DNA of 63,031 nucleotides, counting the filler, from Stramenopiles sp. TOSAG23-6 (taxonomy: Eukaryota): NCBI GenBank assembly GCA_900128565.1. It is 49 parts of 49 records of this genome, joined end to end, with 100 filler letters (N's around TTAATTAATTAA, not from the genome) between each part and the next. Parts side by side here need not be neighbours in the genome. Positions count along the whole stretch, not along the records: positions 23,362 to 24,555 come from LT639504.1; 48 more parts are not named here. One strand, 5' to 3'. The position numbers and the translations under genes are program-made. The notes beneath the pieces are model-generated. The model was not told the DNA's origin, did no database searches, and saw only the letters and a program-made list of their open reading frames with translations. Positions 23,363 to 24,555 of the stretch are shown here, in pieces (the stretch's first letter is position 1; the number at the start of each line of letters is the position of its first letter).

Positions 23363-24555
23363 TTGAGTGTATGTGTTGTAGAGAAGGGTGCTGAAGTTGG
23401 AGCTCATATTCTTTCTGGGAATGTGTTTGAGCCTCGAGCCCTCGATGAATTACTGCCCTCGTGGCGTGAAGATGAAAGTTGCCCCGTGAAAACAGAAGTC
23501 AAAGAAGACCATTTTTTATTCCTTCAAGATGAAAAGAAGTCTATAAAAGTACCAAATTTTATTCATCCAAAAGCAATTCACAACGATGGAAATTATATCA
23601 TTAGTCTGGGTCAACTTTGCCGTTGGTTAGGCACACAGTGCGAAGAAGCAGGAGTAGAAATATACCCTGGATTCTCCGCCTCTGAAGTACTCTATCGCCC
23701 AGATGGTGGTGTGGCTGGTATAGCTACTGCTGATATGGGCGTTAACAAAGATGGATCTCCAAAAAATTTTTGAAATATTTTTTTCACAATACATGTAGTG
23801 AAACTGTAATGAAAAAGTTTGGTCTTCGAGATGCTCCGCCTCACCTTGCTAATGAGGATAAGAAGGAAGCTGATCCTCAATCTTACGCCCTGGGTGTTAA
23901 GGAAGTTTGGCAAATCCCTGAAGAAAAATGCAAACCAGGAACAGTTGTACATACGTGGGGATGGCCATTGACTGATATGAAAAACCCCAAAGATAAGACT
24001 TACGGAGGTGCTTTTCTGTATCATATGGAACCAAATCTAGTACTATGTGGTTTCGTTACCGGATTAGATTACGCAAATCCATATATATCACCTTACAAAA
24101 CGTTTCAAGAATGGAAAAGGCATCCAAAAATAAGTGAATATTTAGACGTTGATGGTGCAGAATGTATTCAATATGGAGCTAGAGTTTTGAATGAAGGTGG
24201 TTATTACGCTTGTCCGAAACTTACGTTCCCTGGAGGCATGTATGTTTTATTTTTTTTTCAATTTCGAATTTTTTTTTTTTCGTACGAAATTTTGTACCTA
24301 ATAATTTTTTTTTTTGAAATATTTTTCCAAAATACATGTTACTCGGTTGTTCCGCCGGTTTCTTAAATGCAATGAAAATAAAAGGTAGTCATACAGCCCT
24401 CAAATCTGGAATGGTAGCAGCTGAAGCAACTTTTGCGGGTTTATTAGGATTAGATAGTACCCTGAAAACGCCTGCACCTGAAATATCCGTATGGGACTAT
24501 CAAATGTCAGATGAATCAGGTGAGCCAGCAATAAAATCTGATGAAAGTTCGATAG
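23363..24555 (+). CDS. ETFDH: ETF-ubiquinone oxidoreductase (partial; apparent deletion near 23770; GT-AT intron 24240-24337)
   Basis: [91 protein letters not shown]. Confidence 0.97.
24240..24337 (+). mobile_element. Introner-family intron, GT-AT, contains no AG at all
   Basis: ggc at|GTATGTTTT..TTCGAA..CGTACGAAATTTTGTACCTAAT..CCAAAATACAT|g tta ctc ggt; removal gives FPGGMLLGC, colinear with ETFDH FPGGLLIGC. Confidence 0.93.

What the first reader, a model, noticed from the sequence alone, without database searches (positions are those of the whole stretch)
24240..24337. GT-AT introns appear to be the majority intron class in this genome
Seen: in well-conserved genes (ETFDH here; also UPF2 6819-6931 and 7049-7276, TPC 32861-32972, K+ channel 35664-35765, four TPS introns, three ZnT9 introns, TTLL, methyltransferase) the only removal that restores a colinear protein starts GTAYGT and ends YAT. 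This ETFDH intron has no AG, and the next AG lies ~47 nt into conserved coding sequence. Manual tally: about 28 of ~36 complete copies end in AT and two clearly end in AG. Known: U2 introns are almost all GT/GC-AG; mass non-canonical introns are reported for few lineages (Fritillaria, Amoebophrya, euglenids) with other boundary types. Inference: a U2 spliceosome that keeps donor and branch-point rules but accepts U at the last intron position. I know of no described genome dominated by GT-AT introns.
Basis: partly seen in the sequence, partly recalled or inferred. Interest (0 to 1): 0.96.

Follow-up and report, generated by a model that had tools for sequence, protein, structure and literature searches.

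The report
Transposon-made introns ending in AT
A 100-base mobile element has peppered the genes of an unidentified marine protist, and it can only be harmless if it is cut out of the RNA at GT...AT ends instead of the usual GT...AG, which is a rare variant of a known way of making new introns.

Summary
24240-24337 is a 98-nt, AG-free insert in ETFDH. Removing it gives ...[13 protein letters not shown]..., colinear with homologues. It is one copy of a very abundant MITE-like element: GTATGTTTTATTTT ... TTCGTACGAAATTTTGTACCTAAC ... T-run ... GAAATATTTTTCCAAAATAC+AT. Of 42 fuzzy 3' arms, 28 end AT and 2 end AG.

- The window is 49 concatenated ~1.2-kb contigs, many of which break inside the element.
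- The last two exon bases repeat the last two intron bases in 15 of 16 copies, like a 2-bp target-site duplication. Most copies therefore fit GT..AT, TG..CA or AT..AC equally. GT-AT is favoured because only GT and AT are invariant.
- A 4,727-nt environmental contig, genomic by its layout, lacks exactly these 98 nt but keeps a second copy in the same gene. The focal intron is therefore a recent, polymorphic insertion.

Best reading: an introner whose 3' splice site (C+AT) comes from the duplicated target.

Splicing itself was not shown, because no RNA contig crossed the junction.

ETFDH looks protist, not animal.

Fritillaria tunicates already show mass 3'-AT introns, so this is a new variant of a known kind.

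The parts
24240..24337 (+). Focal element copy, the inferred intron 2 of ETFDH. 98 nt, GTATGT...ATACAT, no AG.
   Evidence: It is absent from X1 record 1 ('skips 98', both=5) and from P0001.
24238..24239 (+). Exonic AT that repeats the intron's last AT (24336-24337). Inferred 2-bp target-site duplication.
   Evidence: exon-end dinucleotide equals intron-end dinucleotide in 15 of 16 copies (14 AT/AT, 1 AG/AG). The empty site in X1 has one copy.
24240..24248 (+). 5' arm GTATGTTTT: donor-like GTATGT plus the left inverted repeat.
   Evidence: It pairs with 24329-24335 in the fold.
24279..24288 (+). Internal palindrome TTCGTACGAA, conserved in the family.
24295..24302 (+). Branch-point-like TACCTAAT (TACCTAAC in most copies), 36 nt from the 3' end.
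24305..24315 (+). T11 run, a polypyrimidine-tract candidate.
24316..24337 (+). 3' arm GAAATATTTTTCCAAAATACAT. The right inverted repeat AAAATAC is followed by AT.
23363..23764 (+). ETFDH exon A (aligns to P0005 residues 49-181). Its end is truncated in the window.
23765..23794 (+). 3' tail of a second element copy (ETFDH intron 1). Relative to X1 record 1, the window lacks 136 nt here. By inference these are about 70 nt of exon plus about 66 nt of the element's 5' part.
   Evidence: record 1 positions 2464-2599 have no counterpart in the window. (P0005 residues 182-200 are missing).
23795..24239 (+). ETFDH exon B (ubiquinone-binding domain).
24338..24555 (+). ETFDH exon C ([20 protein letters not shown]...), which runs to the contig end.
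6819..6931 (+). Element copy in a UPF2-like gene. Phase 2, junction codon AT|G.
   Evidence: MIF4G hit in the downstream exon.
7049..7276 (+). Longer element copy (228 nt) in the same gene.
749..839 (+). Diverged copy in THOC5 that is a canonical GT-AG intron. The exon ends ..ATCAG and the intron ends ..ATCAG.
   Evidence: Homologue frames fit 749-839, not 749-834.
1145..1203 (+). 5' part of a copy in THOC5, cut by the contig end.
44799..44906 (+). Element copy. ORFs of 99 and 82 codons are restored.
52214..52315 (+). Element copy. ORFs of 99 and 99 codons are restored. Its internal TTTTTTTAG, 13 nt after the branch A, would break the frame.
57490..57615 (+). Element copy, phase 0.
35664..35765 (-). 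Element copy in an ion-channel gene.
33963..34069 (-). Element copy, phase 0.
4526..4676 (-). Element copy, phase 0.
32861..32972 (+). Diverged copy (GTACGT...ATACAT) whose exon ends GT, not AT. At this copy the boundary register is not ambiguous.
55097..55230 (+). Diverged copy with exon end CT and intron end AT. The register is less ambiguous here.

Best explanation
The 98 nt are one copy of a short non-autonomous DNA-transposon-like element (an 'introner') that has spread to a very large number of sites in the genome of an unidentified marine protist.

The element proper runs from GTATG... to ...AAAATAC. It has short imperfect terminal inverted repeats, an internal palindrome, a TACCTAAC branch-point-like motif and a T-run.

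It inserts mostly at AT and duplicates those two bases. In a sense-strand insertion the pre-mRNA therefore reads exon-AT|GTATGT...CTAAC...T-run...AAAATAC-AT|exon.

To restore the original mRNA exactly, the element plus one copy of the duplication must be removed. That unit is an intron that starts GT and ends C-A-T. The donor, branch site and pyrimidine tract come from the element. The last two bases of the acceptor come from the duplicated target.

Where the target was AG (THOC5, 749-839) the same design gives an ordinary GT-AG intron.

Shown:
- the family and its anatomy;
- the flanking 2-nt repeat;
- sense-only ORF restoration;
- an element-free genomic allele identical to the predicted spliced product.

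Inferred:
- that removal happens in RNA, by a U2-type spliceosome that accepts U as the last intron base;
- that the cuts are in the GT/AT register.
For: 1. It is a family.
- The 98-nt copy gives 123 local HSPs on both strands, and many of the 49 contigs end inside it.
- In run X1, summed contig depth over the core is about 216,000 against 9.08 on the unique flanks. The tool warns that this is not a copy number.

2. Flanks.
- The exon-end dinucleotide equals the intron-end dinucleotide in 15 of 16 copies (14 AT/AT, THOC5 AG/AG, one CT/AT).
- The TPC copy is GT/AT (read by eye).
- 24 GT 5' ends are preceded by AT 20, CT 2, TA 1, AA 1.

3. ORF logic. 10 of 17 copies restore at least 45 open codons on both sides in sense, and 0 of 17 in antisense.
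- Homologue-checked cases: ETFDH and THOC5.
- Three exons of the UPF2-like gene join into one frame.

4. Signals.
- GTATGT or GTACGT at the start.
- CTAAY 33-55 nt from the 3' end.
- No AG between branch A +14 and the 3' end in the 12 copies examined. Internal AGs lie 13 nt or less after the branch A, and using them breaks the ORF at 6819, 52214 and 33963.

5. Empty site.
- X1 record 1 (4,727 nt, depth 9.08) matches 23362-23764, 23764-24236 and 24335-24555 with 3 substitutions and goes straight from 24236 to 24335.
- P0001, called on a 4,727-nt Logan contig, is 100% identical to exon B and reads [13 protein letters not shown]. The three substitutions are therefore synonymous.
- That contig keeps the tail of the other ETFDH element copy. 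By my arithmetic it extends about 1.2 kb past the stop codon and about 1.7 kb upstream of the window contig. It therefore looks genomic, not mRNA.

6. The other ETFDH copy (intron 1) is shared by the window and X1 in a gene whose conserved motifs are intact. That copy must be removed for the protein to be made.

7. Precedent. Introners that donate one splice site and take the other from the target-site duplication, and F. borealis introns whose exonic TAC gave the 3' site, are described in PMC11282704 (passages read).
Against: No RNA evidence of splicing.
- In three RNA runs (X6 and X7 from one sample, plus X9), 0 contigs join 24236 to 24335.
- No listed RNA contig carrying the unique flanks reaches the junction in either form.
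- One RNA-library contig (X6 record 8, 204 nt, depth 3.3) contains the tail of the intron-1 element joined to exon B. This is unspliced RNA or DNA carry-over, at a depth similar to the exon pieces (4.1-5.9).
- Many RNA-library contigs carry element-exon junctions of other loci (loose ends at 24337/24338 in X9).

Other weak points:
- X1 is labelled 'DNA?', a guessed kind.
- The terminal inverted repeat is short and AU-rich. The fold is only marginally better than shuffles (z -1.76; 11 of 200 shuffles fold as well).
- Two diverged copies break the 2-nt rule (55097 CT/AT, 32861 GT/AT).
- A UAU in the 3' arm (GAAAUAU) lies upstream of the CAU that is used, so 'first YAU after the branch' cannot be the whole rule.
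- 7 of 17 copies do not give a clean ORF test.
- At least one contig (16892-18085) is chimeric through the element.
Confidence: 0.68

Rival explanations
1. Same element and same spliceosomal removal, but the chemistry happens two bases to the left at both ends. That would make an AT...AC intron (ATGTATG...AAAATAC) processed by the major spliceosome.
For: The mRNA product is identical for the 14 of 16 copies flanked by AT, so no transcript can tell the registers apart at those sites. From my own knowledge, not from a call: a first-base A and a last-base C form a compatible pair in both spliceosomes.
Against: - In this register the first dinucleotide would be CT (55097), GT (32861) or AG (749).
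- The last dinucleotide would be GC (7276, 27031), CC (34648), AT (6931) or TC (749).
- In the zero register GT is invariant, and AT (or AG) is invariant.
- GTATGT fits the usual donor consensus only in the GT register.
- There is no U12-type donor (RTATCCTT, recalled), and the branch motif is 33-55 nt from the end.
Confidence: 0.1
2. The elements are removed from RNA by a structure-guided, non-spliceosomal route. The inverted ends pair and position both cuts, as proposed for euglenid and hemistasiid nonconventional introns.
For: - The minimum-free-energy fold pairs CAUGUAU with AUACAUG and so brings the two boundaries together.
- The boundaries sit 2 bp apart across that helix (my reading of the sequence).
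- A plain 'first YAU' rule does not explain the choice of 3' site.
- Noncanonical introns with end-pairing are described in diplonemids (PMC12621601, abstract only).
Against: - There is a strict sense bias (10 of 17 against 0 of 17). A symmetrical helix would not impose that.
- The conserved GTATGT, CTAAC and T-run are what a spliceosome needs.
- The helix is short, and the fold z-score is only -1.76.
Confidence: 0.05
3. The elements are cut out of DNA (germline-limited sequences, as in ciliate IESs). On this view the window comes from unrearranged DNA and X1 from rearranged DNA.
For: A contig in a run labelled 'DNA?' lacks exactly the 98 nt, with a 5-nt ambiguous junction.
Against: - The same contig keeps the other element copy in ETFDH at the same depth.
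- The element core has huge summed depth in X1.
- RNA libraries hold many element-exon junction contigs.
- The standard genetic code gives ORFs of 380-430 codons, and ETFDH does not group with anything recognisably ciliate. Both of these are weak.
Confidence: 0.03
4. The elements are not removed at all. Element-bearing genes, or at least this ETFDH allele, are insertional null alleles in an amplified single-cell or low-coverage assembly.
For: - The focal copy is missing in another population.
- Read-through shifts the frame and stops after 47 codons.
- No spliced RNA was seen.
- The assembly has collapses and chimeras.
Against: - Too many different genes carry copies, always in sense, with both flanking ORFs intact.
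- The intron-1 copy of ETFDH is shared by the window and X1, in a gene whose only 3 differences are synonymous.
- Random null insertions would be in both orientations.
Confidence: 0.07

Closest known systems
Introner elements of Micromonas pusilla, Aureococcus, dinoflagellates and fungi (Huff et al. 2016; Gozashti et al. 2022, 2025; taken from passages of PMC11282704 and PMC12130899)
   Same: - Short, near-identical, MITE-like elements with terminal inverted repeats and a target-site duplication.
- Inserted in coding exons.
- One splice site is carried by the element and the other is formed with the duplicated target.
- Typical of aquatic microbes.
- Insertion polymorphism.
   Different: - Here the duplication is 2 nt and usually AT, so the acceptor is CAT, not YAG.
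- The published surveys accept AG and AC as 3' sites. They discard families with unfamiliar sites unless RNA-seq supports them (PMC12130899, methods passage).
- Removal from RNA is not shown here.
Non-canonical U2 introns of the larvacean tunicates Fritillaria borealis and F. pellucida (Henriet et al. 2019, not held; Soo et al. 2026, PMC13326754)
   Same: - Mass replacement of GT-AG.
- MITE origin with TIR and TSD.
- A YAY triplet before the 5' site and as the last three intron bases.
- 3'AT is the commonest end (44% and 34%), preceded by a normal U-rich tract.
   Different: - The main F. borealis classes start with AG (AG/AC 18%, AG/AT 16%). Here every copy starts with GT and has a strong GTATGT donor.
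- The host here is not an animal by ETFDH similarity and an indel.
- One dominant family here, against many diverse introns there.
- The 5' partner of 3'AT in F. pellucida is given only in a figure and supplements that I could not see.
Amoebophrya non-canonical repeated introns (PMC7789003; known to me only through the review PMC11282704)
   Same: - A marine protist.
- More than 60% non-canonical introns.
- Multi-copy, with TIR and TSD.
   Different: Amoebophrya has variable 3-5-nt TSDs and no fixed boundary dinucleotides, and U1 snRNA is apparently absent. Here the donor is a textbook U1/U6-type GTATGT.
U12-type and U2-type AT-AC introns
   Same: The AT..AC register is formally possible for most copies.
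   Different: - No U12 donor or branch consensus.
- The branch motif is 33-55 nt from the 3' end.
- The ends vary in that register.

Membership tests
Introner (transposon-derived spliceosomal intron) | Many near-identical copies in one genome | tested here: met
   123 HSPs in 63 kb. Contigs break inside it. Core depth about 216,000 against 9 in X1.
Introner (transposon-derived spliceosomal intron) | Terminal inverted repeats | tested here: met
   5' GTATGTTTT against 3' AAAATAC, with a one-base bulge. The ends pair in the MFE fold. They are short and AU-rich, so this is weak.
Introner (transposon-derived spliceosomal intron) | Target-site duplication at the exon-intron borders | tested here: met
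   A 2-nt repeat in 15 of 16 copies. The empty site carries a single copy. Two diverged copies break the rule.
Introner (transposon-derived spliceosomal intron) | Sense-strand copies in coding exons whose precise removal restores the ORF | tested here: met
   10 of 17 in sense against 0 of 17 in antisense. ETFDH and THOC5 were checked against homologues.
Introner (transposon-derived spliceosomal intron) | Removed from pre-mRNA by the spliceosome | tested here: inconclusive
   Three RNA runs were laid on the ETFDH contig. No contig crosses the junction in either form, and one contig retains the intron-1 tail.
Introner (transposon-derived spliceosomal intron) | Presence/absence polymorphism (recent mobility) | tested here: met
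   One locus: ETFDH 24240-24337 is absent from X1 record 1 / P0001. A second locus could not be tested.
Fritillaria-type non-canonical U2 introns | Most introns are not GT-AG | tested here: inconclusive
   In the window, 28 AT against 2 AG among 3' arms. In homologue-checked genes, the two readable 3' ends in ETFDH are ACAT and the one in THOC5 is CAG. A genome-wide count is not possible.
Fritillaria-type non-canonical U2 introns | YAY triplet before the 5' site and as the last three intron bases | tested here: met
   The last three bases are YAT in nearly all AT-ending arms. The upstream triplet is YAT in 10 of 16 and NAT in 14 of 16.
Fritillaria-type non-canonical U2 introns | Dominant classes begin with AG (AG/AC, AG/AT) | tested here: not met
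   All 17 copies begin with GT.
Fritillaria-type non-canonical U2 introns | Host is a larvacean tunicate | tested here: not met
   - The best named ETFDH hits are choanoflagellates (60-63%) and stramenopiles (58-59%); no animal is among the 120 listed.
- Pig ETF-QO lacks the 6-residue insert that P0001 shares with the protist sequences.
- In the tree, P0001 sits with unnamed marine sequences.
Fritillaria-type non-canonical U2 introns | Duplicated, diverged U2AF subunits | not testable with these tools
   No genome is held for this window.
U12-type (minor) introns | Donor RTATCCTT and a branch TCCTTAAC close to the 3' end (both consensus sequences recalled) | tested here: not met
   The donor is GTATGT. 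The TACCTAAC motif is 33-55 nt from the 3' end.
Internal eliminated sequences (DNA elimination) | Absent from bulk or somatic DNA | tested here: not met
   The intron-1 copy is inside the X1 contig at the depth of its unique flanks, and the element is massively present in X1.
Euglenid/diplonemid nonconventional introns | No pyrimidine tract, variable termini, long end-to-end pairing | tested here: not met
   T-runs and fixed GT/AT ends are present. Only about 8 bp pair, with z -1.76.

The most novel reading that the evidence does not exclude
An uncultured marine protist, unrelated to tunicates, routinely splices roughly ten thousand or more young introner copies at GU...CAU. The last two bases of the acceptor are simply the duplicated insertion target. 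This would be a second, independent lineage whose major spliceosome no longer requires G at the last intron position. It would also be the first in which a single active family with a perfect donor and branch site makes GT-AT the dominant intron class.
Probability: 0.5. Interest if true: 0.8.

Novelty: new variant of a known kind. Interest (0 to 1): 0.6.

Why it matters
Why introns end in AG, and how far that rule can bend, is an open question. So far it can only be approached in Fritillaria.

This case would be cleaner. There is one young family with an optimal donor, an optimal branch site and a pyrimidine tract. The only oddity is the last base, and that base is fixed by where the transposon landed. 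The same element gives GT-AG when it lands at AG.

That would offer a natural experiment on 3' splice-site recognition, with filled and empty alleles segregating in the sea. It would also show how a transposase's target preference can rewrite a genome's splice-site statistics.

It is also a practical warning. Gene finders and introner surveys that insist on AG or AC acceptors would miss nearly every intron of such an organism.

Tried and rejected
- Whole genome: none is held. Earlier findings of this scan: nothing by place, words or sequence.
- RNA cover in that call:
  - X6 covers 23362-23605, 23764-23854 and 24345-24540.
  - X7 covers 23386-23615 and 24019-24169.
  - X9 covers 23419-23584, 23914-24155 and 24457-24555.
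  - The junction region is uncovered in both the spliced and the unspliced form, so this says nothing either way.
- The depth ratios of element to exon in RNA against DNA runs were considered as a measure of splicing. I dropped this because the tool states that summed contig depth cannot be used that way.
- An 18-nt core of the element searched in JGI metagenome contigs gave 51 loci. A blastn of the 98-nt element against them found only 19-26-nt matches in 3 of them. All are chance hits, and the organism is not in that collection.
- Search for joined forms at a second locus:
  - The UPF2-like exon 7278-7550 against longer proteins gave no hit among 75 candidates.
  - The exon 51720-52211 against 1.84 billion representatives gave 0 hits.
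- Taxon:
  - Rfam found only a 5S rRNA and one tRNA.
  - Cluster look-ups gave no names for the sister sequences.
  - The protein atlas gave only 'THOC5, Eukaryota'.
  - P0121 against human THOC5 (E 4e-40) does not discriminate.
- TSD longer than 2 nt: the third base matches in only 3 of the AT/AT copies, so I rejected it.
- A TA duplication in another register is excluded by the empty-site sequence.
- Contig 16892-18085, where the flanking frames do not fit, is not a counter-example. Its left exon is GH31 and its right ORF carries a zinc knuckle, so it is most likely a chimera joined through the element.
- Henriet et al. 2019 is not held. Supplementary files and figures of Soo et al. could not be seen.
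Full report
**What the window is.** The 63,031 bases are not one locus. They are 49 contigs of 1,173-1,203 nt, sorted by length and joined by N44-TTAATTAATTAA-N44 linkers. Some contigs are identical copies: 1304-2505 equals 2606-3807, and 16892-18085 occurs four times. GC is about 0.2-0.4. Many contigs begin or end inside one repeated sequence. 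No genome is held for the window. ORFs of 380-430 codons under the standard code give no sign of a reassigned stop codon.

**The observation.**
- 24240-24337 reads GTATGTTTTA...CAAAATACAT. It is 98 nt, 84% A+T, and has no AG.
- Upstream, frame 0 ends ...[11 protein letters not shown]. Downstream, frame 2 continues [24 protein letters not shown].
- Exon B is an ETF-QO ubiquinone-binding domain (PF21162, E 1.4e-36).
- Removal gives [13 protein letters not shown]. This is colinear with relatives (FPGGALVGC..., [13 protein letters not shown]...) and with pig ETF-QO.
- The first downstream AG is at +47 and is out of frame. The AG at +51 would delete 17 conserved codons.
Of 42 distinct fuzzy 3' arms, 28 end AT and 2 end AG (54308+, 5064-). 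Two end AC; one of these (36072-) is a clear copy. The rest are internal misalignments.
- In four independent runs, no alternative to the final T reached the listing threshold, although depth there is in the thousands. CAT is therefore not an assembly error.

**What it is.**
- The 98 nt are one copy of a family. There are 123 local matches on both strands.
- The 5' arm GTATGTTTTATTTT has 23 + 7 matches with at most 2 mismatches.
- The 3' arm is GAAATATTTTTCCAAAATACAT.
- Between the arms lie ATTTCGAATTT, the palindrome TTCGTACGAA, TTTTGTACCTAAC and T-runs (alignment).
- Lengths run from 91 to 288 nt, with most around 100-125.
- The ends are short inverted repeats: GTATGTTTT against AAAATAC.

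**The flanking repeat and the register.**
- The base pair before the element is almost always AT, and the element-plus-flank also ends in AT. The exon-end dinucleotide equals the intron-end dinucleotide in 15 of 16 copies: 14 AT/AT, THOC5 AG/AG, and one CT/AT.
- A further diverged copy in the TPC-like gene is GT/AT.
- This is what a 2-bp target-site duplication looks like. It means that GT..AT, TG..CA and AT..AC removals give the same product at most sites.
- For ETFDH the repeat is CATGT, so six registers are equivalent.
- I favour GT..AT for two reasons. GT is the first dinucleotide in all 17 copies. AT (or AG) is the last dinucleotide even where the preceding bases differ (ACAT, GCAT, CCAT, ATAT). 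In the -2 register both ends would vary.

**Are they introns?**
- With the GT..AT interval removed, both flanks stay open for at least 45 codons in a compatible phase in 10 of 17 copies. On the opposite strand this holds in 0 of 17.
- Of the remaining 7 copies, three are cut short by a contig end or an N. One (17136-17242) sits in a contig whose left exon is GH31 and whose right ORF has a zinc knuckle, most likely a chimera assembled through the repeat. Three are unclear.
- Three exons of a UPF2-like gene join into one frame, with ATG at both junctions.
- The putative branch motif CTAAY lies 33-55 nt from the 3' end. The only internal AGs lie 13 nt or less after the branch adenosine, and using them breaks the frame at 6819, 52214 and 33963. 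From there to the 3' end there is no AG in the 12 copies examined.
- So the element has a donor, a branch site, a pyrimidine tract and an AG-free zone. The one thing it lacks is an AG.

**A telling exception.**
- In THOC5 a diverged copy (749-839, GTACGT...GTACATATCAG) follows an exon that ends ATCAG.
- The homologue P0121 aligns to 3-710 in frame 3 and to 835-1140 in frame 1. Only the GT-AG interval 749-839 connects these two frames; 749-834 does not.
- Here the flanking repeat ends in AG and the intron is canonical.
- This fits a design in which the last two intron bases are whatever the duplicated target was.

**Reads.**
- Twelve runs hold parts of 22068-31015. They comprise three seawater 'DNA?' runs (shares 0.62-0.34), three runs of a coded organism A, a marine 'DNA?' run (0.06) and five seawater metatranscriptome runs (0.20-0.05).
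- Because of the linkers, only one contig could be laid.
- In X1, a 4,727-nt contig of depth 9.08 matches 23362-23764. It then has 136 nt that the window lacks, then matches 23764-24236, and then runs directly into 24335-24555.
  - The 98 nt are therefore skipped, with a 5-nt ambiguous junction.
  - There are only 3 substitutions.
- The protein database holds P0001 (418 aa) from a 4,727-nt Logan contig.
  - It is 100% identical to exon B.
  - It reads ...[13 protein letters not shown]... and continues to the C terminus with no other interruption.
  - The 3 substitutions are therefore synonymous.
- Three features make that contig look like genomic DNA rather than mRNA: its ORF starts inside the tail of another element copy (23765-23794), it extends by my arithmetic about 1.2 kb past the stop, and it extends about 1.7 kb upstream of the window contig. 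The focal insert is thus a presence/absence polymorphism, and the empty allele equals the predicted spliced product.
- The 136 nt missing from the window correspond to P0005 residues 182-200 plus, by inference, the 5' two-thirds of that other copy. This is an assembly collapse or a deletion.
- That other copy, ETFDH intron 1, is shared by the window and X1.
- RNA: no contig in X6, X7 or X9 crosses the focal junction in either form. One X6 contig retains the intron-1 tail. Splicing is therefore inferred, not observed.

**Who is it?**
- The best named ETFDH relatives are choanoflagellates (Barroeca, Microstomoeca, Salpingoeca, Monosiga; 60-63%) and stramenopiles (58-59%). No animal is among the 120 listed.
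- In a FastTree of 41 of the 121 stored rows, P0001 groups (SH-like 99) with four unnamed marine sequences, one of them a EukProt entry without an accession. The deeper nodes are unresolved.
- Pig ETF-QO is more distant and lacks a 6-residue insert shared by P0001 and the protist sequences.
- THOC5's only close relative is another unnamed EukProt entry (58%).
- I conclude that this is an unidentified marine protist, not a Fritillaria.

**Comparison with what is known.**
- Introners are MITE-like elements with TIRs and TSDs. They donate one splice site and form the other in the duplicated target (review PMC11282704, passages read).
- Large introner surveys accept only AG/AC acceptors unless RNA-seq proves otherwise, and they need annotated genomes (PMC12130899, passages read).
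- In Fritillaria (PMC13326754 sections 4, 21 and 26, and the bioRxiv version):
  - Only 5% of F. borealis introns are GT/AG.
  - AG/AC and AG/AT lead in F. borealis.
  - A YAY triplet precedes the 5' site and ends the intron.
  - 3'AT is the commonest end in F. pellucida (44%) and F. borealis (34%).
- The present case shares the architecture and the 3'AT. It differs in its uniform, strong GT donor, in being a single dominant family, and in its host.
- Whether GT/AT is already the leading class in F. pellucida is shown only in a figure and supplements that I could not see.
- A search for GT-AT with 'introns' and 'splice' found 34 papers. None of the 30 listed describes a GT-AT-dominated genome (listing only).

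**Verdict.** The finding is real and interesting. Its best explanation is a known mechanism, the introner with a TSD-derived acceptor, in a new variant (GT...CAT) and a new host. The missing piece is direct RNA evidence.

**Unexplained.** A UAU in the 3' arm is skipped in favour of the terminal CAU. The acceptor is therefore defined by more than 'first YAU after the branch'. The extra factor could be context or the end-pairing helix (fold z -1.76).

Noticed in passing
whole window: The window is a concatenation of 49 length-sorted contigs of about 1.2 kb, joined by N44-TTAATTAATTAA-N44 linkers. Some contigs are exact duplicates (1304-2505 = 2606-3807; 16892-18085 occurs four times). Features must never be read across linkers.
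   Followed up: yes
23764: The window's ETFDH contig lacks 136 nt that an environmental contig has. The loss covers about 19-23 codons of the FAD-domain region and, by inference, the 5' part of another element copy. It is either an assembly collapse or a real deletion.
   Followed up: partly
16892-18085: A GH31 exon, an element copy, and then an ORF with a CCHC zinc knuckle in an incompatible phase. This is probably two loci joined through the repeat. The zinc-knuckle ORF could belong to a retroelement.
   Followed up: partly
57026-57086: A short GT...CATAG interval with element-like ends (GTATGTTTTAA..., ...AAATATTTTTTCATAG). It is flanked by a 5-nt direct repeat TGCAA that lies outside the GT-AG interval. 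Its frame was not checked.
   Followed up: no
54308 (+), 5064 (-), 36072 (-): Three otherwise typical 3' arms end ACAG, ACAG and ACAC. In all three the 5' end is cut off by the contig end. Whether their upstream exon ends AG/AC, as the duplication model predicts, could therefore not be tested.
   Followed up: partly
36967-37085 (-), 48804-48899 (-): A 5S rRNA gene (85.8 bits) and a 96-nt tRNA match. The tRNA match is long enough to hold an intron.
   Followed up: no
6510-6525; about 5564-5575 (-): Short telomere-like strings (CTAACCTAACC; GGGTTAGGGT) at or near contig ends.
   Followed up: no
run X9 (polyA RNA): One RNA contig shows an element 3' end, then 28 other bases, then an element 5' start. 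This is two unspliced copies flanking a very short exon at some other locus.
   Followed up: no
24316-24322 and the same position in other copies: A UAU (in GAAAUAU) sits 15 nt upstream of the CAU used as the inferred acceptor. The choice of 3' site cannot be simply the first YAU after the branch point.
   Followed up: no
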